Positions 23,778-32,439 of a DNA stretch of 36,779 nucleotides are shown piece by piece. The notes under the pieces are model-generated. The model had not been told where the DNA came from, searched no databases, and saw only the letters and a list, made by a program, of their open reading frames with translations. Position 1 is the first letter of the stretch; every line of letters starts with the position of its first letter. The stretch is from an uncultured Gammaproteobacteria bacterium. Its GTDB lineage: Bacteria > Patescibacteriota > Patescibacteriia > Magasanikbacterales > UBA922. The position numbers and the translations under genes were made by a program. The DNA is taken from positions 4,190 to 40,968 of the forward strand of contig CAYPPF010000005.1 of the NCBI GenBank assembly GCA_964412535.1. The letters run 5' to 3'.

Positions 23778-25133
23778 ATGAAAATAAAATTTTGTGGAGC
23801 TGCTCGTGAGGTGACTGGCTCTTGCCATCTCTTGGAAGCAGGAGGTAGGAAGATATTAGTGGACTGTGGGATGTTCCAAGGTTCTGATTTCAATACTGGA
23901 AAGAATCACGATTCTTTTCCTTTTGATCCAAAAGAGGTTGACGTTCTCTTGGTTACTCATGCTCACCTGGATCATGTTGGTAGGATACCCAAGTTGATAA
24001 AAGAGGGGTTTACAGGCAACATATATGCGACTAAGGCCACTCGTGAACTAGCTAAGTTGATCTGGTCGGATGCACACCACATAATGAAGGAGAATAATAA
24101 GAGGTATAATACACCAATATTGTTTAGCGAGAGTGATGTCGCAATGGCATATGACCAGTGCCAAGGAGTAGGCTATGGTCAGACAATAGAGATTGATAAG
24201 GGGATTAGTGCTGTGTGGAAGGATGCTGGACATATATTTGGGGCTTCTTTCATAGAGGTAAGTGCAGAAGGAAAGAAGATTGCATTTTCAGGAGACATTG
24301 GTAATGAAGATGTTCCAATTCTCAAAGATACAGAACCATTAGATGATGATGTGGATGTTTTGCTTTGTGAATCCACATATGGGGACAGGATTCACGAAGA
24401 TATTGATACTCGCAGGGGTATAATACTAGATTTGATTAAAGAAGGTGCTGAAAAAGGTGGTACTATTATGATACCGGCATTCTCTTTGGAAAGAACTCAG
24501 GAATTACTATATGAACTAAACTTACTTAGTGAACATGACAAGGTTCTTCCTAAAATTCCAATGTTCTTAGATAGTCCGTTAGCTATTAATGCTACTGAAG
24601 TATACAAAGAATATCCAGAATACTATGACGAAGCAGCTGCTAAGCTGCACATGGTGGGGGATGATTTTTTTGACTTCCCAGGACTCAAGTTCACATACAA
24701 TCGTGAAGAATCAAAAAAAATTAACCACATGCGTGGATCCAAGCTTGTAATGGCAGGAGCAGGAATGATGAATGGAGGAAGAATAGTACATCATGCTTTC
24801 CGCTATCTCCCAGACCCAGCTTCCACCCTTCTCATTGTCGGATATCAGGCTCAAGGAACTTTAGGGAGAAGATTATATGAAGGGGCTAATCAAGTAAAGA
24901 TATTTGGCGAAGATGTTGATGTAAGGTGTACAGTAAAGGCTATTGGAGCTTTGTCTGCACACGGAGACCAGAAAAAGTTGGTAAAGTGGGTGGGTAGTGG
25001 AAAGAAAGTACCCAAGAAAGTGTTTTGTGTTCATGGAGAAATTCATGCAGCAACAGAACTAGCTCACAGGATACGGGACAAATACAAGACAGAGGCCCTT
25101 ATCCCAGAATATGAAGAAGAAGTGGAAATATAG
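23778..25133 (+). CDS. beta-CASP family metallo-beta-lactamase ribonuclease (CPSF73/RNase J-like)
   Basis: MBL motif THAHLDHVGRIP, then DAGHIFGAS, ESTYGDR, beta-CASP/RMMBL region, C-terminal SAHGD and VHGE. Trimmed to the ATG at 23778. Confidence 0.85.
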   Translation: MKIKFCGAAREVTGSCHLLEAGGRKILVDCGMFQGSDFNTGKNHDSFPFDPKEVDVLLVTHAHLDHVGRIPKLIKEGFTGNIYATKATRELAKLIWSDAHHIMKENNKRYNTPILFSESDVAMAYDQCQGVGYGQTIEIDKGISAVWKDAGHIFGASFIEVSAEGKKIAFSGDIGNEDVPILKDTEPLDDDVDVLLCESTYGDRIHEDIDTRRGIILDLIKEGAEKGGTIMIPAFSLERTQELLYELNLLSEHDKVLPKIPMFLDSPLAINATEVYKEYPEYYDEAAAKLHMVGDDFFDFPGLKFTYNREESKKINHMRGSKLVMAGAGMMNGGRIVHHAFRYLPDPASTLLIVGYQAQGTLGRRLYEGANQVKIFGEDVDVRCTVKAIGALSAHGDQKKLVKWVGSGKKVPKKVFCVHGEIHAATELAHRIRDKYKTEALIPEYEEEVEI

Positions 25134-25144
25134 CTATAAATAAC

Positions 25145-25179
25145 AAAAAACTGCTCACATGGAGTAGTTTTTTGTTTTT
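25145..25179. terminator. bidirectional terminator (RNase gene on plus, large RNA on minus)
   Basis: AAAAAA-CTGCTC-ACATG-GAGTAG-TTTTTTGTTTTT. Confidence 0.65.
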
Positions 25180-26071
25180 CTCTACCCACCTGTGTAGATG
25201 AGTATAGAAGTTGTGGCGCCCTATTAAACAACGGGCGCCAGTGTTTTTCAGAATGAATGGGTGGAATGAGCAGAGGGTCGGGGGTTGGACAACCGTAGTC
25301 GTCCGCCCCCCTTCCCAAAAAATGAGTGGTGGGGTGTAGGCTTTGCACGGGCTGGCTATATACCCCGCGAGCCTGGGAGAACCCCCGCCCTTCCCTAGCC
25401 AGGTTAGGGAGACGTGTTGTTCCTTTCACAGTGTTTATATTCAGCTTACTCCCCAGCTGAAGACACTGTGCTCTCGGAACGTAGCGGCTGTCTGACCTTG
25501 AATTGTTGGTCAGTACATTGAGGTGTGCCCGAAGTGGCAAAACCTCAACCGCTTGCCCCCAACCAATGGGGGGCTCGGTAGAGTGGGGTTACCGGAGACC
25601 CCCACTTGCTCATCGTAGGGACGGCGCTCAGTCATCCAGCGCAATGTGCCCACGATGGAGGAACCCATCTGTGCAAATCCGGAAGTTCCCCAACGCATCG
25701 GCCGGGAGAGAAGGACATCCTCCCCCAACACCACCACACGGTCTTTCGTCCTGCCGCTGCCAGTCAAGTTAAGGTTTCCCCCCACCGCCGTACGAAATAT
25801 ACTTCGTCCGCATTTTGGAGTACTCACCCGCTTATGACATGGTCAACCAGGGCTTTACCGTGCGCTCCACCGCAATGGGCTGCATACAGGTTCCAAGGTC
25901 TACCACCCAGATCCTGGACCGATAGTCCAAAAAGATCTTGTAGTTATCCTAGTCCCGTTACCAGTCCGTGCGATGCCGGCTGAAGACAATTATTGTTGTC
26001 TGCAATCGGCGTCGCATGTGCGACGCGCGTGTAAGGTTCGGTCAGATTGTACTAGAAAGTACATCTGACAA
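25145..26071 (-). ncRNA. candidate large (about 0.9 kb) structured ncRNA, class unknown
   Basis: A perfect promoter lies at 26078-26106 and a terminator at 25145-25179. Line 25561-25620 has 37/60 G+C, against 17/60 in line 26281-26340. Only short overlapping Arg/Pro/Gly-rich ORFs occur, on both strands. Several perfect local hairpins are present (26041-26069; 26009-26026; 25984-26001; 25215-25239). Confidence 0.5.
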
Positions 26072-26106: not shown

Positions 26107-26165
26107 GGGGTTATGTGTTAATATAGCATATTTTTGGCTAAAATAAGGTAAATCTGGCTCTAAAA

Positions 26166-26198
26166 GGCTCTACTCTTGTTAGAGCCTTTTGTTTTTTT
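26166..26198 (+). terminator. hairpin plus T-run (terminator-like), partly inside direct-repeat copy 1
   Basis: GGCTCTA (26166-26172) / TAGAGCC (26180-26186), then TTTTGTTTTTTT. No obvious plus-strand gene lies upstream of it. Confidence 0.4.
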
Positions 26199-26211
26199 GG
26201 GGTGTGGATAA
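26179..26211 (+). repeat. 33-bp direct repeat, copy 1 (left boundary of the two-gene cassette)
   Basis: TTAGAGCCTTTTGTTTTTTTGGGGTGTGGATAA, identical to 27399-27431. It ends in a perfect DnaA-box 9-mer (26203-26211). Confidence 0.9.
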
Positions 26212-26217
26212 TTAGTA

Positions 26218-26246
26218 TTGACAGCGTATCATTTATGGTATATAGT
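26218..26246 (+). promoter_or_regulatory. sigma70-type promoter of the cassette
   Basis: TTGACA (26218-26223), 17-nt spacer, TATAGT (26241-26246). Confidence 0.6.
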
Positions 26247-26272
26247 ATACAGTATAAACTATATACCATAAA
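26232..26272. promoter_or_regulatory. perfect 15-bp inverted repeat (candidate operator or 5'-UTR hairpin)
   Basis: TTTATGGTATATAGT (26232-26246) and ACTATATACCATAAA (26258-26272), 11 nt apart. It covers the -10 box and ends 2 nt before the ATG at 26275. Confidence 0.6.
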
Positions 26273-26274
26273 GT

Positions 26275-27033
26275 ATGAAGACTGATACTAGACAAAAAAT
26301 GTTTAAATTTATAGAAGAAAAGGGACAAGTAGCACCTAAAGAAATTGTTGATTTTATTGGTTTTAGTGCACCAGCTGTTTTCCGTCAATTAAAAAAATTA
26401 ATTGATGAGGGAAAAATACAAAAAACAGGAAGCCCTCCTCACGTGCTATATCACTTACCAATGTCACCAAAAGAGCTGGCTGTTCAGCCGGCAATTAGCT
26501 GGACTTCTTCATTGACACCACCTGAATTGGAGCCAGATGACCACTGTCAAACCAGGGATGTATTCCAAGCCAGGCACGGTAAGTTACCAAAAGATCTTGG
26601 TAGTGTTATAAAAGAAGAACAATTAGTTTTTTTACTGTCAGCAGTAATCGGCGAAATAGGGAACAATTCTTTTGATCACAATTTGGGTAATTGGCCTGAT
26701 ATGCCAGGGGTGTTTTTCCGGATTGATTTTAAAAAGAGAGTCATTCTTTTGGCAGACAGAGGACAGGGGGTCTTGACCAGCTTACAAAAAGTAAGACCAA
26801 ATATTCCTAATCACAGAGAGGCAATAAAGATCGCCTTTACAGAAATATTATCAGGTCGAATGCCAGAACATCGAGGGAATGGGTTGAAGTTTGTAAGGCG
26901 GGTAATTGAGGAAAACAAGCTGCTGTTAAGGTTTTATTCTGGGTCAGCTAAGTGTATAATACAAAATGGTAAAACAAAATTTTTAGATTCTGACAAAAAT
27001 ATAAAAGGCACTGTAGCCGTGATAGAATTTTAA
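26275..27033 (+). CDS. winged-HTH domain fused to a GHKL (HATPase_c, RsbW/SpoIIAB-like) ATPase/kinase domain
   Basis: The N-terminus (FKFIEEKGQVAPKEIVDFIGFSAPAVFRQLKKLIDEGKIQK) looks like a MarR/ArsR-type wHTH. The C-terminus carries an N-box (EIGNNSFDH), a G1 box (DRGQG) and a G2 box (GNGLKF). Confidence 0.75.
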   Translation: MKTDTRQKMFKFIEEKGQVAPKEIVDFIGFSAPAVFRQLKKLIDEGKIQKTGSPPHVLYHLPMSPKELAVQPAISWTSSLTPPELEPDDHCQTRDVFQARHGKLPKDLGSVIKEEQLVFLLSAVIGEIGNNSFDHNLGNWPDMPGVFFRIDFKKRVILLADRGQGVLTSLQKVRPNIPNHREAIKIAFTEILSGRMPEHRGNGLKFVRRVIEENKLLLRFYSGSAKCIIQNGKTKFLDSDKNIKGTVAVIEF

Positions 27034-27043
27034 TTTTAATAAT

Positions 27044-27319
27044 ATGAAATTAGAACTTAAAAAATTCGGTACAACTTTAAGCTCCCGGCCTGCTGCGAAA
27101 GAGGCGTGGGCAGTAACGCGTGCTTATATTTTAAAAGACAAGCAACCCGGAGAAAAAATAGAAATTGATTTTGATGGTGTACAAGTTTTAACTCCATCTT
27201 GGGCTGATGAGTTCATCTCTTCACTTAAACAAGAACATCCAAATGATGTGGTTCTTCTTCCGTCTGACAATGCTTCAGTAAAAATGTCGCTTGAGTTTGT
27301 TGGAAAAGAATCAAATTGA
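27044..27319 (+). CDS. STAS-like small protein (DUF4325-type)
   Basis: 91 aa. SSRPAAKEAW ... IEIDFDGVQVLTPSWADEFISSL resembles the STAS/anti-anti-sigma fold signature as I recall it for DUF4325. It starts 10 nt after the GHKL gene. Confidence 0.7.
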   Translation: MKLELKKFGTTLSSRPAAKEAWAVTRAYILKDKQPGEKIEIDFDGVQVLTPSWADEFISSLKQEHPNDVVLLPSDNASVKMSLEFVGKESN

Positions 27320-27340
27320 TTAGAGTTGACAAAATAATAA

Positions 27341-27370
27341 AAACCACCAGTAATAGGCTGGTGGTTTTTT
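27341..27370 (+). terminator. intrinsic terminator of the cassette
   Basis: AAACCACCAG-TAATAGG-CTGGTGGTTT followed by TTTT. Confidence 0.7.
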
Positions 27371-27398
27371 ACTGTGCCTTGGTTATATATGGGGTTTA

Positions 27399-27431
27399 TT
27401 AGAGCCTTTTGTTTTTTTGGGGTGTGGATAA
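27399..27431 (+). repeat. 33-bp direct repeat, copy 2 (right boundary of the cassette)
   Basis: Identical to 26179-26211. Here the 5' arm of the hairpin is missing, so this copy is not a terminator. It contains a DnaA-box 9-mer at 27423-27431. Confidence 0.9.
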
Positions 27432-27447
27432 ATGTGGTTGTAAATGG

Positions 27448-27476
27448 TTGCTAAGTGTTTCAGAGTGGTATATAAT
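27448..27476 (+). promoter_or_regulatory. mraZ (dcw cluster) promoter
   Basis: TTGCTA (27448-27453), 17-nt spacer, TATAAT (27471-27476). Confidence 0.6.
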
Positions 27477-27484
27477 GGAAGTAC

Positions 27485-27504
27485 GTGGGGAAAAGTGGGG
27501 AAAA
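27485..27504 (+). promoter_or_regulatory. tandem MraZ-box-like repeats
   Basis: GTGGGGAAAA occurs twice in tandem (27485-27494 and 27495-27504), just downstream of the -10 box. MraZ is known to bind GTG[GT]-containing direct repeats at about 10-nt spacing upstream of its own gene. Confidence 0.6.
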
Positions 27505-27535
27505 TGCTTGTCTTCCTACTTTAGCAAAGACAACT

Positions 27536-27967
27536 ATGTTTATCGGTGAATACACCCATAATTTAGATGAAAAGGGACGCTTGGCTGTACCTAAAAAGTT
27601 TAGGGCTGAGCTGTCTAAAGGAGCAGTTGTTACCCGCGGTTTGGACAACTGCTTGTTTCTGTACACTAAAATTGAATGGAAAAAGCTTGCTGATAAGTTA
27701 GCTGGCTTGCCATTTTCACAAGCAAACTCTAGAGCCTTTGCCCGTTTGATGTTGGCTGGGGCTATGGACGTAAAGACAGACAAACAAGGTAGGGTAATAC
27801 TTCCTGAATATCTGCGCAGCTTTGCTGGTCTCAAAAAGAACATAATCGTTGCAGGTCTATACAACCGCCTCGAGATCTGGGACCAGAAGAAGTGGGCAGA
27901 TTACAAAAACAAGACTGAAAGTGAGAGTAGTGCAATTTCTGAACAAATGTTTGAGTTGGGAATCTAA
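27536..27967 (+). CDS. mraZ: division/cell-wall cluster transcriptional regulator MraZ
   Basis: MFIGEYTHNLDEKGRLAVPKKFR ... DKQGRVILPEYLR shows the two SpoVT/AbrB-like halves. Trimmed from GTG 27485 to ATG 27536. Confidence 0.93.
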   Translation: MFIGEYTHNLDEKGRLAVPKKFRAELSKGAVVTRGLDNCLFLYTKIEWKKLADKLAGLPFSQANSRAFARLMLAGAMDVKTDKQGRVILPEYLRSFAGLKKNIIVAGLYNRLEIWDQKKWADYKNKTESESSAISEQMFELGI

Positions 27968-29323: not shown

Positions 29324-29677
29324 ATGTGGATCTTAGTGATACAACGAATGGTGTTGGAATTAGTGCTTGACTTAGTATACTTCCCTTTGTGGTGGTATAC
29401 AGCTGGTACTAAAAAAGCAGCTATAACATGCTATCATCTTCTGCAAGACGGGAATATGCGAATGGCTCCTGGTTTGTGGCTGAAAAATATTTTTGTCCCC
29501 ATGTATGGGCAAACAGACTGGCGAGGAAGGCTGACCAGTTTTTTTGTGCGCTCAGCTAATATTGTATTAAGAGGCTTTGCTCTCCTTGTTTGGCTAATAG
29601 TGGTGGTAATGATTTTCCTTCTTTGGTTAGTTTTCCCAGTTTTTGTAGTGTATATGCTTTTTCAATCTATAGCTTGA
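29324..29677 (+). CDS. hypothetical membrane protein
   Basis: About 117 aa with 3 hydrophobic segments. An extended -10 (TGGTATAAT, 29269-29277) lies upstream. The start is uncertain (TTG 29309 or ATG 29324). Confidence 0.55.
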   Translation: MWILVIQRMVLELVLDLVYFPLWWYTAGTKKAAITCYHLLQDGNMRMAPGLWLKNIFVPMYGQTDWRGRLTSFFVRSANIVLRGFALLVWLIVVVMIFLLWLVFPVFVVYMLFQSIA

Positions 29678-29679
29678 TT

Positions 29680-32439
29680 ATGTTGTTTACTAAGAATGCC
29701 CCCCTCAACCTATTACCCTGCAACACCTGCCTTGGAAGCGGGTATGTTGGGGTACGCAAGTGTTCTGAATGCAAAGGCATGAGCATGGGTAGAATGGTGA
29801 GAGGCAAGTTTTTGTACTGGGGAGAGCCTTTAACTAGGTATCATATAAAGGTGAGGCAAGGGAGAAGGTTTTTAGACAAGTTTAGGGCAATAGGGGCACT
29901 AATATTTGGATTAGGGTTTTTAGGGTTATTTTTCTGGCTAGTATCAGGTAAAGGATTGTTTAATGAAATCTTCAAGGTTGATTTTTGGACGAGTAGGAAT
30001 GATTTTCTTGCCCCGTTGTTTTGGATGGCCATTATATCCTTCAGTTATTTGGTATACAGGATAGTGGTGGTAGACAAGCAGCCTGTGCCAGTGGAATGGC
30101 ATGAGTATGATAGTGATGAAGCCGTTAGGAAAGAGAAAAAGGGTCCAGGCTTGCAAACATGGCGTCAGGCGATAAAATTATCAAAGAAAAAAAGAAAGGA
30201 TATAACCAAGAGCTTTACTAGTGATGTAATGCAGGTATTAGAAGAGGCATATTATGTAGCAGACAAGCATCAGAGCGACTTTGTGGCACCAGCTCATGTT
30301 TTCTTTGCTCTTCTTTCTTCAAATAAGGTAGCTAATGTTTTTATACGCCTAGGTATTCCAGTACAAACCTTGCAGGCTCATTTAGCAAAAGCTTTTGTTG
30401 CCAGTAAAAAGAACAGAGTGCCTGTGATTTCTGAAGGTGTGCAACAGATTCTTTTCCAGGCATATGAAAAGGCATTTGTCGACCATCAGGAGTTTGTACA
30501 TGTTACAGAGTTGTTAATTACAACAGTGCGTCAAGATGAGAAAATACAAGAATTATTATATGATCTTAAGGTGGACAAGGACAAGCTGTCTAATGTAATA
30601 GAATGGTTGCGTATTCGCGAGCGTTTACGTTGGCAATACAAGAAATTTCACAGGGCAGCTTCTAGGAGAAGTAAACATGGATTAGATCGAGCTATGACAG
30701 CAATAGCCACTCCATATTTGAATAGTTTTAGTCAGGATATAACAATAGCGGCTAAATATAATAACCTATCTCCTTGTGTTGCTAGAGACAAAGAAATTGA
30801 AGAGATTTTTCGTATTATTGAAGGTGGTAGACAAAGTGTGGTATTAGTAGGAGAGCGAGGGGTTGGTAAAATGAGTATTGTCGAGGGAATTGCTCAAAAG
30901 ATGGTGGAAGAGGAAGTTCCTAAGAGGCTTAGAGACAAAAGGTTGGTACAGCTATCAACTTCATCTCTAATGGCAGGTACTACTCTGAGTGGGGCGCAAG
31001 AAAGATTAATACGGATAATGAATGAGGTTTCAAGAGCTAAGAATATAATTTTGTTTATAAAAAATATACATGATTTGATTAGCATAAGCTCTAATGAGGG
31101 TAGTGAAGGATTGGATGTTTCCGAAACTTTGTCTGAGTTTCTTGGTCCGGGTAAGTTCCTTACCTTGGCCACCACCACTCCAGAGGGATTTAATCAACAC
31201 ATTTTGAATTCAGAAATAGGTTCAGTACTTTCACGAGTGGATGTGAAAGAGATGGATGATAACCAAGCAATACAGGTGTTGGAATCAAAAGTGGGGCCCT
31301 TAGAGTACAAACATCAAGTATTTTTCTCATATGATGCTCTTTCTCAGTCTGTTGTTCTGGCAAAGAGATTTTTACATGATCAAAATCTTCCTGAAAGCGC
31401 TATTTCAATAATGACAGAATCTGCTAGTTTAGTGCGCAACCAAAAAGGGGAGAATCATTTAATTAGTGCTGATGATGTTGCCTCTATCGTGGGTGGGAAG
31501 ACTGGGATTCCTGTAGCAAGTATTTCTGAGGATGAATCTACTAGACTATTACGTTTAGAAGAGGAAATGCACAAAAGGATAATAGGGCAGGATCAAGCAG
31601 TGAAAATAGTTGCAAGTGCTTTGCGTAGAGCTAGGGCAGAAATACGTTCACAAAAGAGGCCTATTGCAAACTTTTTGTTTTTAGGACCAACTGGAGTAGG
31701 TAAGACTGAATTAGCCAAGACAATTGCCAGTGTATATTTTGGTGGAGAAAAAAGAATGGTGCGAGTTGATATGAGTGAGTTTCAAGATAAATCTAGTATA
31801 TATAGGTTGATTGGCCAGCCAAATAGGCAGGGAACAGGAATATTAACTGAAGCAGTAAGGCAGAATCCATTTTCTTTAGTATTGTTGGATGAAATGGAAA
31901 AAGCAGATCCAGATGTCCTTAATTTGTTCTTACAAGTATTTGATGATGGTAGATTGACTGATAGTACTGGTAAGGTAATAGATTTTACTAATTCCATTAT
32001 TATTGCCACTTCTAATGCAGCCACTTCATATGTTCAACAGCAGATTGAACAGGGGATTGAATTAGAAGAAATACGTCAGGATTTGATTAAGGGAGAGTTG
32101 AAAAAGTACTATCGTCCTGAATTTATCAACAGATTTGATGGTATTGTATTGTTCAAGTCTTTGAAAAGGGATGAGATAAAGAAGATAGCTGGTTTGATGT
32201 TGAAAAGGGTGGCTAAAGATTTAGAAAAAAGAGGGGTTGGTTTGCGAGTGGAAGAAGCTGCACTAGAGTCCTTGGCAGAAGTGGGCTTTGATCCACAGTT
32301 TGGTGCCCGCCCTATGCGAAGAGCTATTCAAGAACATGTAGAAAATCAATTAGCAGAATTAGTTCTTGGGAATAAGCTAAATCGCAGGGATGTTGTAGTT
32401 CTTGGAAAAGAGTGTAATATATCAATAGAGGGAGAATAA
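29680..32439 (+). CDS. Clp/Hsp100-family AAA+ ATPase with N-terminal zinc ribbon, two TM helices and a degenerate first AAA module
   Basis: Trimmed to the ATG at 29680, since the ORF-track start at 29590 overlaps the upstream gene. Features: CNTCLGSGYVGVRKCSECKG (two CxxCxG); TMs AIGALIFGLGFLGLFFWLV and LAPLFWMAIISFSYLVY; a Clp_N-like repeat; D1 GERGVGKMS / ILFIKNIH (Walker B DE replaced by KN); D2 GPTGVGKTELAK / LVLLDEMEKA. There is no M-domain insertion. Confidence 0.85.
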   Translation: MLFTKNAPLNLLPCNTCLGSGYVGVRKCSECKGMSMGRMVRGKFLYWGEPLTRYHIKVRQGRRFLDKFRAIGALIFGLGFLGLFFWLVSGKGLFNEIFKVDFWTSRNDFLAPLFWMAIISFSYLVYRIVVVDKQPVPVEWHEYDSDEAVRKEKKGPGLQTWRQAIKLSKKKRKDITKSFTSDVMQVLEEAYYVADKHQSDFVAPAHVFFALLSSNKVANVFIRLGIPVQTLQAHLAKAFVASKKNRVPVISEGVQQILFQAYEKAFVDHQEFVHVTELLITTVRQDEKIQELLYDLKVDKDKLSNVIEWLRIRERLRWQYKKFHRAASRRSKHGLDRAMTAIATPYLNSFSQDITIAAKYNNLSPCVARDKEIEEIFRIIEGGRQSVVLVGERGVGKMSIVEGIAQKMVEEEVPKRLRDKRLVQLSTSSLMAGTTLSGAQERLIRIMNEVSRAKNIILFIKNIHDLISISSNEGSEGLDVSETLSEFLGPGKFLTLATTTPEGFNQHILNSEIGSVLSRVDVKEMDDNQAIQVLESKVGPLEYKHQVFFSYDALSQSVVLAKRFLHDQNLPESAISIMTESASLVRNQKGENHLISADDVASIVGGKTGIPVASISEDESTRLLRLEEEMHKRIIGQDQAVKIVASALRRARAEIRSQKRPIANFLFLGPTGVGKTELAKTIASVYFGGEKRMVRVDMSEFQDKSSIYRLIGQPNRQGTGILTEAVRQNPFSLVLLDEMEKADPDVLNLFLQVFDDGRLTDSTGKVIDFTNSIIIATSNAATSYVQQQIEQGIELEEIRQDLIKGELKKYYRPEFINRFDGIVLFKSLKRDEIKKIAGLMLKRVAKDLEKRGVGLRVEEAALESLAEVGFDPQFGARPMRRAIQEHVENQLAELVLGNKLNRRDVVVLGKECNISIEGE

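What the first reader, a model, noticed from the sequence alone, without database searches (positions are those of the whole stretch)
26275..27319. Two-gene module: wHTH-fused GHKL (RsbW-like) ATPase plus STAS-like DUF4325-type partner, with no sigma factor or phosphatase nearby
**Gene 1.** It joins an N-terminal winged-HTH to a C-terminal histidine-kinase-like ATPase fold, with N-box EIGNNSFDH, G1 DRGQG and G2 GNGLKF.

**Gene 2.** It starts 10 nt downstream and is a 91-aa STAS-like protein (IDFDGVQVLTPSWADEF).

**Comparison with known systems.**
- GHKL serine kinase plus STAS substrate is the core of partner-switching modules such as RsbW/RsbV and SpoIIAB/SpoIIAA.
- Here the kinase-like protein carries its own DNA-binding domain.
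- No sigma factor or PP2C phosphatase is encoded in the window.

**Interpretation (inference).** This may be a self-contained switch in which the STAS protein controls a DNA-binding ATPase.

**Context.** The pair has its own promoter, a 15-bp inverted-repeat operator and a terminator. It is bracketed by direct repeats, so it behaves as an accessory cassette between a giant-RNA locus and the dcw promoter. As far as I know, pairs of this type are essentially uncharacterised.
Basis: partly seen in the sequence, partly recalled or inferred. Interest (0 to 1): 0.72.

Follow-up and report, generated by a model that had tools for sequence, protein, structure and literature searches.

The report
HTH-fused GHKL ATPase with STAS-like partner
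This is a real, self-contained two-gene switch, a DNA-binding protein fused to a kinase-type ATP-binding domain plus a small STAS-like partner, from a widespread family that nobody has characterised and that also occurs in phages, plasmids and archaea.

Summary
Gene 1 (26275-27033) has a winged-HTH head and a C-terminal GHKL/Bergerat ATP-binding domain. Pfam misses that domain, but a confident AlphaFold model, Foldseek and transitive profile homology all show it. Gene 2 (27044-27319) is a DUF4325 (STAS-like) protein.

The pair is strictly conserved. In 78 of 80 related loci the DUF4325 gene lies directly downstream, often overlapping by 4 nt. No third gene, sigma factor or PP2C phosphatase recurs nearby.

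- The DNA-binding head is interchangeable: MerR-type in 54 loci, wHTH in 19, excisionase-like in 2, and missing in at least three. Each head type has its own palindromic motif at its own promoter.
- In other bacteria the two genes are fused into one protein, GHKL then DUF4325.
- Homologous pairs occur on a Bacillota plasmid, in a Nanoarchaeota genome and beside the integrase of a temperate Burkholderia phage.

My best reading is an autoregulated, ATP-dependent partner switch wired directly to DNA. "RsbW-like kinase" is plausible but unproven. A toxin-antitoxin or defence-like role, with the HTH serving only autoregulation, remains a serious rival. I rate it a new variant of a known kind.

The parts
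26176..26211 (+). Direct repeat, copy 1 (36 nt). It overlaps the descending arm and T-run of the terminator hairpin at 26161-26191 that closes the upstream GC-rich unit.
   Evidence: the repeat finder family D1, 97% identical to copy 2; terminator scan.
26218..26246 (+). Sigma-70-type promoter of the pair: TTGACA, 17-nt spacer, TATAGT (11 of 12 consensus positions).
   Evidence: Promoter scan.
26232..26272 (.). Palindromic operator candidate. Arms of 18 nt (94% complementary) with a 5-nt gap, overlapping the -10 hexamer and ending 2 nt before the ATG.
   Evidence: the repeat finder I1. Relatives with a wHTH head carry similar TATAGTWTA / ATAAACTAT palindromes 0-50 nt upstream. ATAGTATA occurs in 13 of 18 wHTH loci, 0 control regions and 4 of 53 MerR loci. 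The half-site is unique to this promoter in the window.
26275..27033 (+). Gene 1, 252 aa: wHTH head, conserved linker and GHKL ATP-binding domain.
   Evidence: ORF; more than 5000 homologs; AlphaFold model with pLDDT 91.1 and pTM 0.83.
26284..26454 (+). Winged helix-turn-helix DNA-binding head (residues 4-60).
   Evidence: Pfam HTH_24 E 4.3e-5, above cutoff; 49 of 50 family members hit HTH_24; model topology H5-16, H21-28, H32-44, E49-51, E58-60; Foldseek hits to MarR, AspA and MecI.
26617..27030 (+). GHKL / Bergerat-fold ATP-binding domain (residues ~115-252). It ends right after the C-terminal G245-T246 strand, with no transducer domain.
   Evidence: Foldseek on the domain-only model: top 50 are all GHKL, prob 0.99-1.00; viral library likewise, with RIIA, Hsp90 and Topo II; hhalign to the fusion family E 5.6e-14; phrog_3364 E 2.6e-11.
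26653..26682 (+). N-box, EIGNNSFDHN (E127-x3-N131-x3-H135).
   Evidence: Invariant in the family. E127, N131 and H135 are also invariant when distant plasmid homologs are added. Aligns in register with SpoIIAB SEAVTNAIIHG and PMS1.
26755..26769 (+). G1 box, D161-R-G163-Q-G165.
   Evidence: Invariant.
26857..26892 (+). ATP-lid end and G2 box: R195-M-P-E-H-R-G201-N-G203-L-K-F.
   Evidence: R195, P197, E198, R200, G201, N202, G203, L204 and K205 are invariant. Residues 195-200 are the only segment with pLDDT below 50, as expected for a flexible lid. Aligns with SpoIIAB PELERSGMGF.
27044..27319 (+). Gene 2, 91 aa: DUF4325 (STAS-like) partner.
   Evidence: Pfam PF14213 E 2.3e-10, 40.5 bits against a cutoff of 23. 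Lies immediately downstream of gene 1 in 78 of 80 loci. hhalign to the C-terminal domain of the fusion proteins, E 7e-9.
27197..27199 (+). Codon of Ser52, the candidate phospho-acceptor or helix N-cap in the invariant P-S-W-A-D-E-F motif.
   Evidence: Invariant. The PSW.DE motif is present in 74 of 78 partner genes. Conserved as SSFADE in the plasmid and fusion relatives. Aligns to SpoIIAA S59, next to phospho-S58, but that alignment is not significant.
27339..27369 (.). Intrinsic terminator hairpin after gene 2: stem CCACCAG/CTGGTGG flanked by an A-run and a T-run, so potentially bidirectional.
   Evidence: the repeat finder I3; terminator scan; T-run read directly from the sequence.
27396..27431 (+). 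Direct repeat, copy 2 (36 nt), just upstream of the mraZ promoter (TTGCTA-17-TATAAT, 27448-27476).
   Evidence: the repeat finder D1; promoter scan.

Best explanation
The locus encodes an autoregulated, self-contained two-protein ATP-dependent switch.

Components:
- Gene 1 joins a winged-HTH DNA-binding head to a minimal, kinase-type GHKL ATP-binding domain.
- Gene 2, tightly coupled to it, is a DUF4325 STAS-like partner.

Proposed mechanism:
- The head binds the 18-nt-arm palindrome that overlaps the -10 hexamer of the pair's own promoter and represses it (inferred).
- The GHKL domain binds the STAS-like partner in a nucleotide-dependent way, and probably phosphorylates its invariant Ser52 (inferred).
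- This toggles the oligomeric state or DNA affinity of gene 1's protein, so cellular ATP/ADP status or an unknown input is converted directly into transcription without a sigma factor (inferred).

Wider family: the pair belongs to an uncharacterised family with the layout [variable head]-GHKL plus DUF4325 (phrog_3364 / phrog_5816). The head is MerR-type, wHTH or excisionase-like HTH in Patescibacteria. It is weakly STAS-like or absent elsewhere.

What is shown: the domain architecture, the conserved pairing, the natural fusions, the head swapping and the head-specific promoter palindromes. DNA binding, complex formation, phosphorylation and the physiological input are all inferred.
For: GHKL domain:
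- Foldseek on the domain-only model gives only GHKL domains in the top 50, prob 0.99-1.00.
- The N-box, G1 and G2 residues are invariant, and the lid region is flexible in the model.
- hhalign links the family at E 5.6e-14 to relatives that pass the Pfam HATPase_c_2 or HATPase_c cutoffs.
- The motifs align in register with SpoIIAB: E-x3-N-x3-H, DxGxG and PE..R.G.G.
- The domain ends after the C-terminal G245-T246 strand with no transducer domain, as in small GHKL kinases (family knowledge).

Partner and pairing:
- DUF4325 scores above the Pfam cutoff.
- It lies directly downstream in 78 of 80 loci. The most common junction is a 4-nt overlap.
- Natural fusions in the order GHKL then DUF4325 exist in seven proteins.
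- Homologous pairs occur in Bacillota, Nanoarchaeota and a Burkholderia phage.

DNA-binding head and autoregulation:
- The head is swapped between clades.
- Upstream palindromes and 8-mers are specific to each head type and are absent from control regions.
- The window's operator overlaps the -10 hexamer.

Self-containment:
- No third neighbour is conserved, and no sigma factor or PP2C recurs. The 147 flanking genes carry 184 Pfam families, with at most 4 occurrences of any one.
Against: - There is no direct evidence for kinase activity, complex formation or DNA binding.
- HATPase_c_2 is below the cutoff for the window protein and weak in only 11 of 50 members.
- hhalign against SpoIIAB (E 0.22) and SpoIIAA (E 0.79) is not significant.
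- The nearest solved structures are ATPases (GyrB, Hsp90) and CheA, not SpoIIAB.
- Gene 2's fold was not modelled, so 'STAS-like' rests on the Pfam family description.
- Headless forms and forms with a weakly STAS-like head exist, so DNA binding is not intrinsic to the core.
- No phosphatase that could reset a phospho-switch is found nearby.
- The only detectable operator is at the pair's own promoter.
- Gene order (GHKL first, partner second) is the reverse of spoIIAA-spoIIAB and rsbV-rsbW (established knowledge).
Confidence: 0.45

Rival explanations
1. The conserved GHKL + DUF4325 core is a mobile conflict module of the toxin-antitoxin, addiction, abortive-infection or phage-defence type. 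One protein restrains or senses for the other. The HTH head in Patescibacteria only provides the promoter autoregulation typical of type II TA operons. The module's real output is growth arrest or interference with an invader, not gene regulation.
For: - It is a compact two-gene operon with overlapping genes and a palindromic operator on its own promoter.
- Its genomic context varies widely, and it has moved relative to its closest relatives.
- It is bracketed by a 36-nt direct repeat.
- Two modules with different heads occur in one MAG, L014 and L049.
- Homologous pairs sit beside the integrase and near BrnT/BrnA in Burkholderia phage vB_E188, next to IS elements on plasmid pAACI02, and next to a PIN gene in a Nanoarchaeota genome.
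- Both PHROG families it matches have no known function.
- A PIN nuclease subgroup is described as transcriptionally coupled to DUF4325 genes (PMC5499597).
- A 293-aa protein plus a DUF4325 protein lie between the repressor and the integrase in Francisella prophage KIRK (PMC7924643).
- Headless forms exist.
Against: - PADLOC finds no defence-family match beyond weak hits to the HTH.
- In Patescibacteria the flanking genes are mostly housekeeping, with only scattered TA or defence genes such as AbiEii (2) and DUF4143 (2).
- No recognisable toxin or effector domain is present, and a minimal GHKL domain has no known toxic activity.
- Both proteins are highly conserved across at least 584 species-representative genome loci, and a subclade keeps local synteny.
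Confidence: 0.3
2. The GHKL domain is not a protein kinase. It is an ATP sensor or ATPase that dimerises on ATP binding, as in GyrB, MutL, Hsp90 and MORC. ATP-driven dimerisation clamps two HTH heads onto the palindrome, and the DUF4325 protein modulates the ATPase cycle without being phosphorylated.
For: - The nearest structural neighbours are the GyrB 24-kDa, Topo II and Hsp90/TRAP1 ATPase domains.
- In the Patescibacteria clade the N-box also fits the ATPase-type E-x3-N-x2-D pattern (E127, N131, D134).
- No phosphatase is encoded nearby.
- A palindromic operator implies a dimeric binder.
Against: - There is no transducer domain or N-terminal strap, which ATPase-type GHKLs use for hydrolysis (family knowledge).
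- D134 is not conserved in distant homologs, whereas H135 is, which points to a kinase-type E-x3-N-x3-H box.
- The weak Pfam hits and the above-cutoff hits of relatives favour HATPase_c_2.
- The G2 and lid region resembles SpoIIAB and CheA.
Confidence: 0.15
3. It is a conventional anti-sigma kinase and anti-anti-sigma pair that acts on a sigma factor encoded elsewhere in the genome. The HTH would be incidental.
For: - JGI annotates some fusion relatives as anti-sigma regulatory factor or anti-anti-sigma factor.
- The combination of a GHKL domain and a STAS-type partner matches that kind of module.
Against: - No sigma factor is adjacent in the window or recurrent among 147 flanking genes.
- The head is a bona fide DNA-binding domain, swapped between clades and matched by head-specific promoter palindromes, which would be pointless for an anti-sigma factor.
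- Sequence similarity to SpoIIAB and SpoIIAA is not significant.
Confidence: 0.05

Closest known systems
SpoIIAB-SpoIIAA and RsbW-RsbV partner-switching modules (GHKL Ser kinase/anti-sigma factor plus STAS antagonist)
   Same: - A small GHKL domain without a transducer domain.
- An E-x3-N-x3-H N-box, a DxGxG G1 box and a PE..R.G.G lid/G2 region that align in register with SpoIIAB.
- A small STAS-type partner encoded next door, with a conserved Ser at the start of a helix.
   Different: - No sigma factor and no PP2C phosphatase.
- The kinase-like protein carries its own HTH head.
- The partner is DUF4325, not canonical STAS. hhalign against SpoIIAA gives E 0.79.
- HATPase_c_2 is below the cutoff.
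- Gene order is reversed (knowledge).
Uncharacterised phage/plasmid family phrog_3364 / phrog_5816: [weakly STAS-like head]-GHKL plus DUF4325, as a pair or fused
   Same: - Homologous GHKL domain (hhalign E 5.6e-14) and homologous DUF4325 (E 7e-9).
- The same order, GHKL then DUF4325.
- Overlapping genes in the Nanoarchaeota genome and the Burkholderia phage.
   Different: The head is a roughly 110-aa weakly STAS-like domain (STAS_2 E 6e-4; hhalign to SpoIIAA E 0.008) rather than an HTH. These relatives sit in prophage, plasmid and other varied contexts, and no function is known.
SiaB-SiaC of Pseudomonas aeruginosa (kinase plus DUF1987 STAS-like protein controlling a diguanylate cyclase); comparison from my own knowledge
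   Same: A partner switch with an output other than a sigma factor and a non-canonical STAS-like substrate.
   Different: - SiaABCD includes the PP2C phosphatase SiaA and the enzyme output SiaD.
- It has no fused DNA-binding domain.
- Its STAS-like family is different.
- I did not test this relationship here.
MarR-type and MerR-type one-component transcription factors
   Same: An N-terminal wHTH or MerR HTH head and a palindromic operator overlapping the regulator's own promoter.
   Different: The C-terminal sensor or dimerisation module is replaced by a GHKL ATP-binding domain, and a separate obligatory partner protein is present.
Type II toxin-antitoxin operons such as HipBA
   Same: A two-gene, translationally coupled operon, autoregulated through an HTH and a promoter palindrome, patchy and mobile, and present in prophages and plasmids.
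   Different: There is no recognisable toxin domain and no PADLOC match. The HTH sits on the larger, enzyme-like protein.

Membership tests
GHKL / Bergerat-fold ATP-binding superfamily | Bergerat alpha/beta sandwich fold | tested here: met
   The domain-only AlphaFold model (pLDDT 85.7) gives only GHKL domains in the Foldseek PDB top 50, prob 0.99-1.00, with 131 hits at E<=1e-3. The viral library gives the same picture.
GHKL / Bergerat-fold ATP-binding superfamily | N-box with the Mg-binding Asn, G1 box (DxGxG) and G2 box (GxG) in the canonical order | tested here: met
   E127, N131, D161, G163, G165, G201 and G203 are invariant in 50 family members and in distant homologs. They align in register with PMS1, CheA and SpoIIAB.
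GHKL / Bergerat-fold ATP-binding superfamily | Significant match to a curated HATPase profile | tested here: inconclusive
   The window protein has no hit, and members reach only E>=0.01. Homologs linked at hhalign E 5.6e-14 do pass the cutoffs: P0244 at 32.8 bits and P0246 at 30.5 bits for HATPase_c_2, and P0253 at 38.1 bits for HATPase_c.
GHKL / Bergerat-fold ATP-binding superfamily | ATP binding or hydrolysis | not testable with these tools
   Needs biochemistry.
RsbW / SpoIIAB anti-sigma Ser kinases (Pfam HATPase_c_2) | HATPase_c_2 profile match at or above the gathering score | tested here: not met
   No hit for the window protein. 11 of 50 members match, with best E 0.01. hhalign against SpoIIAB gives E 0.22.
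RsbW / SpoIIAB anti-sigma Ser kinases (Pfam HATPase_c_2) | Cognate sigma factor, and usually a PP2C phosphatase, in the same operon or neighbourhood | tested here: not met
   None among the 10 flanking ORFs scanned in the window. None recurs among 147 flanking genes of 79 loci.
RsbW / SpoIIAB anti-sigma Ser kinases (Pfam HATPase_c_2) | Phosphorylates a conserved Ser of an adjacent STAS antagonist | not testable with these tools
   An adjacent STAS-like partner with invariant Ser52 exists, but its equivalence to SpoIIAA S58 is not established.
DUF4325 (PF14213, STAS-like) | Pfam profile match above the gathering score | tested here: met
   E 2.3e-10, 40.5 bits against a cutoff of 23. 113 of the 120 listed homologs carry PF14213.
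DUF4325 (PF14213, STAS-like) | STAS fold | not tested
No solved relative exists by sequence. hhalign against SpoIIAA is not significant.
Winged-HTH (MarR / HTH_24-like) DNA-binding domains | Profile match, tri-helical plus beta-wing topology, and a palindromic target | tested here: met
   HTH_24 above the cutoff and in 49 of 50 members. Model topology fits. Foldseek hits MarR, AspA and MecI at prob 1.0. A palindrome sits at the pair's own promoter, with a clade-specific motif. DNA binding itself was not tested.
Z-alpha (Z-DNA-binding) domains | Helix-3 Asn and Tyr that contact Z-DNA, plus a wing with P-P-x-W | tested here: not met
   The profile hits PKZ and ADAR1 Z-alpha at E 1.5e-5. In that alignment, however, the Asn and Tyr positions are F36 and K40, and the Trp position is Leu or Phe.
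Known anti-phage defence systems (PADLOC-DB v2) | Match to a defence-system protein model | tested here: not met
   Only weak HTH-region hits to Csa3 and CARF models (E>=0.002). Nothing for gene 2.

The most novel reading that the evidence does not exclude
This would be a previously unrecognised class of sigma-independent partner switches. A GHKL kinase-like domain and its DUF4325 STAS-like antagonist form an ancient, portable switch core, found fused, paired, in phages, plasmids and archaea. Patescibacteria have wired that core directly to DNA through interchangeable HTH heads (MerR, wHTH, excisionase-like). The result is ATP- or phosphorylation-gated transcription factors that need neither a sigma factor nor a dedicated phosphatase.
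Probability: 0.4. Interest if true: 0.72.

Novelty: new variant of a known kind. Interest (0 to 1): 0.6.

Why it matters
- Partner switching (GHKL kinase plus STAS antagonist) is a textbook bacterial signalling logic, but it is known almost only as a way to control sigma factors or a few enzymes. This family would show the same core plugged straight into DNA-binding heads.
- The family is widespread in Patescibacteria, whose regulatory repertoire is small and poorly understood.
- The work assigns a partner and a testable hypothesis to DUF4325 and to two PHROG families of unknown function that sit in prophage accessory positions.
- The natural fusions, the head swapping and the head-specific operators give clear, cheap experiments: EMSA, phosphotransfer and toxicity tests.

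Tried and rejected
1. Direct sequence detection of the GHKL domain in gene 1 failed with Pfam, NCBIfam, and single-sequence and profile searches of PDB. A bridging profile gave only sub-significant hits, although all seven were GHKL proteins.
2. hhalign of the family profiles against validated SpoIIAB and SpoIIAA sequences (validated) was not significant. I therefore do not file the pair as RsbW/RsbV-type.
3. The Z-alpha reading of the wHTH head is rejected, because the Z-DNA contact residues are absent.
4. PADLOC gave no defence-system match.
5. Literature: DUF4325 appears in three papers, none of them functional. Searches for 'STAS-like' and for partner-switching with HATPase_c_2 found nothing relevant.
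6. The empty-site test for cassette insertion had no power:
   - the exact junction pattern gave 0 hits in metagenomes;
   - a 20-mer from the repeat gave 4 unrelated chance hits;
   - the exact MraZ look-up found nothing;
   - the five contigs that carry the identical gene 2 are the same population and match the window at 99-100% identity.
7. A search for further operator copies, in the window and in each related locus, found none beyond each pair's own promoter.
8. Rfam gave no match for the upstream GC-rich region, at gathering scores or at E<=1.
Full report
**1. What is in the sequence**

Two same-strand ORFs sit at 26275-27033 (252 aa) and 27044-27319 (91 aa), separated by 10 nt. Around them:
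- A near-consensus promoter, TTGACA-17-TATAGT, lies at 26218-26246.
- An inverted repeat with 18-nt arms (94% complementary, 5-nt gap) spans 26232-26272. It overlaps the -10 hexamer and ends 2 nt before the ATG.
- A terminator hairpin with flanking A- and T-runs lies at 27339-27369.
- A 36-nt direct repeat (97% identical) brackets the unit at 26176-26211 and 27396-27431.

The first repeat copy overlaps the descending arm and T-run of another terminator hairpin (26161-26191). That hairpin closes a GC-rich stretch of about 900 nt without long ORFs. Downstream are MraZ, RsmH, a small ORF, a ClpB-like AAA+ gene and MraY. Upstream are LepA, MurJ, CorA, a hypothetical gene and a beta-CASP RNase. None of these 10 flanking ORFs has a sigma-factor or PP2C domain. 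The only corrections are that the palindrome arms are 18 nt, not 15, and that the 'giant RNA' stays unverified (no Rfam match).

**2. Gene 1 domains**

The N-terminus is a winged HTH:
- Pfam HTH_24 scores above its cutoff, and 49 of 50 family members hit it.
- The AlphaFold model of the whole protein is confident (pLDDT 91.1, pTM 0.83) and shows three helices plus a beta-wing.

The family profile also resembles Z-alpha domains (E 1.5e-5). However, the Asn and Tyr that contact Z-DNA are replaced by F36 and K40, so I reject that reading.

The C-terminal half is invisible to Pfam, NCBIfam and PDB sequence searches. Several independent results nevertheless show it is a GHKL domain:
- Modelled alone (pLDDT 85.7), it returns only GHKL/Bergerat ATP-binding domains among the top 50 PDB matches: GyrB 24 kDa, Topo II, Hsp90/TRAP1 and CheA P4. 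Probabilities are 0.99-1.00, and 131 hits have E<=1e-3. The viral structure library behaves the same way, returning RIIA, Hsp90 and Topo II.
- The quoted motifs are invariant in 50 homologs: E127-x3-N131-x3-H135, D161-x-G163-x-G165 and R195-x-P-E-x-R-G201-N-G203-L-K.
- The only low-confidence segment in the model, residues 195-200, is where a GHKL ATP lid belongs.
- A bridging alignment with distant plasmid homologs keeps exactly E127, N131, H135, D161, G163, G165, G201, G203 and G245.

The domain stops right after the last strand, with no transducer domain.

**3. Is it 'RsbW-like'?**

This is not established:
- HATPase_c_2, the RsbW/SpoIIAB family, appears only weakly, in 11 of 50 members with best E 0.01.
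- I validated remembered SpoIIAB and SpoIIAA sequences against PDB and compared the family profiles with them.
- The SpoIIAB comparison is not significant (E 0.22). Its alignment still puts the N-box, G1 and the PE..R.G.G lid/G2 region in register.
- The His-containing N-box, the lack of a transducer domain and the small size fit the kinase branch. The nearest structures, however, are ATPases.

I therefore treat 'kinase-type GHKL' as the more likely reading, not as a shown fact.

**4. Gene 2**

It matches DUF4325, which Pfam describes as STAS-like, at 40.5 bits against a cutoff of 23. The motif L49-x-P-S52-W-A-D-E-F is invariant. PSW.DE occurs in 74 of 78 partner genes from other genomes, and plasmid and fusion relatives have SSFADE at the same place. 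Ser52 aligns next to the phospho-Ser58 of SpoIIAA, but that alignment is not significant (E 0.79). No solved relative exists by sequence.

**5. The pairing is conserved and self-contained**

Among the 80 kept, contig titles that name a lineage are mostly Patescibacteria groups, plus two Elusimicrobia and one 'archaeon'; many others carry generic 'uncultured' labels.
- In 78 of the 80 fetched loci a DUF4325 gene lies immediately downstream on the same strand. The other two loci are cut by contig ends.
- The commonest junction is a 4-nt overlap, and most lie between -25 and +12 nt.
- No other neighbour cluster occurs in more than 10 loci.
- The 147 immediate flanking genes carry 184 different Pfam families. 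The most frequent is RmuC with 4 occurrences, no sigma or PP2C family recurs, and TA or defence genes are only scattered.
- The closest relatives (about 64% identity) carry the pair in a different context: TrmB, pair, RmuC, rpsT, GGDEF, holA. The pair has therefore relocated in the window's lineage, which fits the 36-nt repeat bracket. I could not find an empty site.

**6. New evidence: swapped heads with matching operators**

Among 79 gene-1 homologs the N-terminal head varies:

| Head type | Loci |
|---|---|
| MerR-type HTH | 54, plus L053, whose head is cut by the contig end |
| wHTH | 19 |
| Excisionase/HTH_17-like | 2 |
| None (about 190 aa) | 3 |

The exhaustive representative search also shows many headless clusters of about 190 aa. 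Palindromes lie 0-50 nt upstream of the gene in the wHTH clade. Upstream 8-mers are head-specific:

| 8-mer | Loci of its own class | Control regions | Loci of the other class |
|---|---|---|---|
| ATAGATTT (MerR class) | 27 of 53 | 0 | 1 of 18 |
| TTGCATAG (MerR class) | 22 of 53 | 0 | 0 of 18 |
| ATAGTATA (wHTH class) | 13 of 18 | 0 | 4 of 53 |

Each operator half-site occurs only at the module's own promoter within the DNA I hold. This supports binding of the head to its own promoter. It does not reveal any further targets.

**7. New evidence: natural fusions and relatives outside Patescibacteria**

- Plasmid pAACI02 of Alicyclobacillus carries a homologous pair of 297 aa and 102 aa. hhalign gives E 7.7e-8 and 9.3e-8 for the two proteins.
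- Seven homologs of its large protein are single polypeptides of 409-458 aa. Their layout is [weakly STAS-like head]-[HATPase_c_2/HATPase_c]-[DUF4325], the same order as the two genes here. Four of these fusions, and two unfused relatives in the same alignment, pass a Pfam HATPase_c or HATPase_c_2 cutoff.
- The window's gene 1 family aligns to the GHKL part of these proteins at E 5.6e-14. Its gene 2 family aligns to their C-terminal DUF4325 at E 7e-9.
- A Nanoarchaeota genome has a HATPase_c_2 protein overlapped by a 95-aa DUF4325 gene, next to a PIN gene.
- Gene 1's GHKL domain hits phrog_3364, and the fusion also hits phrog_5816. Both are of unknown function.
- In the temperate Burkholderia phage vB_E188 a 305-aa homolog (E 4.3e-12) and an overlapping 98-aa DUF4325 gene sit directly after the integrase, near BrnT/BrnA.
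- The literature adds two pointers. A PIN subgroup is described as 'transcriptionally coupled to DUF4325' (PMC5499597). A 293-aa protein plus a DUF4325 protein lie between the repressor and the integrase of a Francisella prophage (PMC7924643). I found no functional study.

**8. Interpretation**

The constant unit is GHKL plus DUF4325, and the fusions make a direct physical or functional interaction very likely. In Patescibacteria this core has acquired DNA-binding heads that recognise the module's own promoter.

- **Best reading (0.45):** an autoregulated, ATP-dependent partner switch wired directly to DNA. The GHKL domain binds, and probably phosphorylates, the STAS-like partner, and this changes DNA binding.
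- **Main rival (0.30):** the core is a TA-like or defence-like conflict module and the HTH only autoregulates it. In favour are the headless forms, the phage, plasmid and PIN contexts, and the evident mobility. Against are the absence of any effector domain, the absence of a PADLOC match and the mostly housekeeping neighbourhoods.
- **ATPase-clamp variant (0.15)** and a **conventional anti-sigma pair (0.05)** are less likely.

All mechanistic steps beyond architecture, pairing, fusion and operator co-variation are inference.

**9. Verdict**

It is a new variant of a known kind: partner-switch components with a direct DNA-binding output. Interest 0.6.

Noticed in passing
window 25100-26050: A GC-rich stretch of about 900 nt (GC 0.49-0.59 against a background of about 0.40) with only short overlapping ORFs. 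It lies between a beta-CASP RNase gene and the pair, and ends at a terminator hairpin (26161-26191). No Rfam family matches at gathering scores or at E<=1. It is a candidate large structured ncRNA.
   Followed up: partly
window 26284-26454 (gene 1 residues 4-60): The wHTH family profile hits the Z-alpha domains of PKZ, ORF112 and ADAR1 (E 1.5e-5 to 1e-3), and 11 of 50 members weakly hit Pfam z-alpha. The Z-DNA-contacting Asn and Tyr are replaced by F36 and K40.
   Followed up: yes
window 27448-27505: The mraZ promoter (TTGCTA-17-TATAAT, 27448-27476) is followed by a tandem GTGGGGAAAA GTGGGGAAAA repeat at about 27486-27505, with 10-bp periodicity. This looks like MraZ operator boxes, judged from the sequence and from general knowledge of MraZ.
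   Followed up: no
L097:1419-1720 versus window 27300-27620: A population variant from another metagenome sample has a 20-bp deletion inside the mraZ coding sequence, which shifts the frame after about codon 9. The rest of the locus is 100% identical.
   Followed up: partly
window 29590-32439: A 949-aa ClpB/ClpC-like AAA+ protein (AAA_2, ClpB_D2-small) is encoded inside the dcw-like cluster, between the small post-rsmH ORF and mraY. An ftsI-type gene would usually sit there.
   Followed up: no
L014 and L049 (both from MAG DATDYA01): One Patescibacteria MAG carries two modules with different heads: wHTH-type in L014 and MerR-type in L049. L049 has a 23-nt-arm palindrome upstream.
   Followed up: partly
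L030:3089-5703: The palindrome AAATACGGAGGTC..GACCTCCGTATTT upstream of this locus's gene 1 recurs at several places in the locus (3089, 4779, 5366/5381, 5676/5691). It is a dispersed repeat, not a module-specific operator.
   Followed up: no
L083:4542-8378 (Cytobacillus plasmid NZ_CP085393.1): An HATPase_c_2-like 'ATP-binding protein' (E 9e-6) is followed by a 192-aa protein with a C-terminal MarR-like wHTH. A multiubiquitin / ThiF / DUF6527 cluster follows that. This may be a split arrangement of GHKL and HTH next to a ubiquitin-like conflict system. Similarity to the window protein is weak (tblastn E 0.5).
   Followed up: partly
L082:2535-10351 (Aminobacter plasmid pMET2): A 189-aa protein annotated STAS-like (weak DUF4325 match, E 0.003) and a 274-aa HATPase_c_2-like protein lie in one same-strand gene array with DUF4417, DUF499 and DUF1156 genes. 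This is a defence-island-like context.
   Followed up: no
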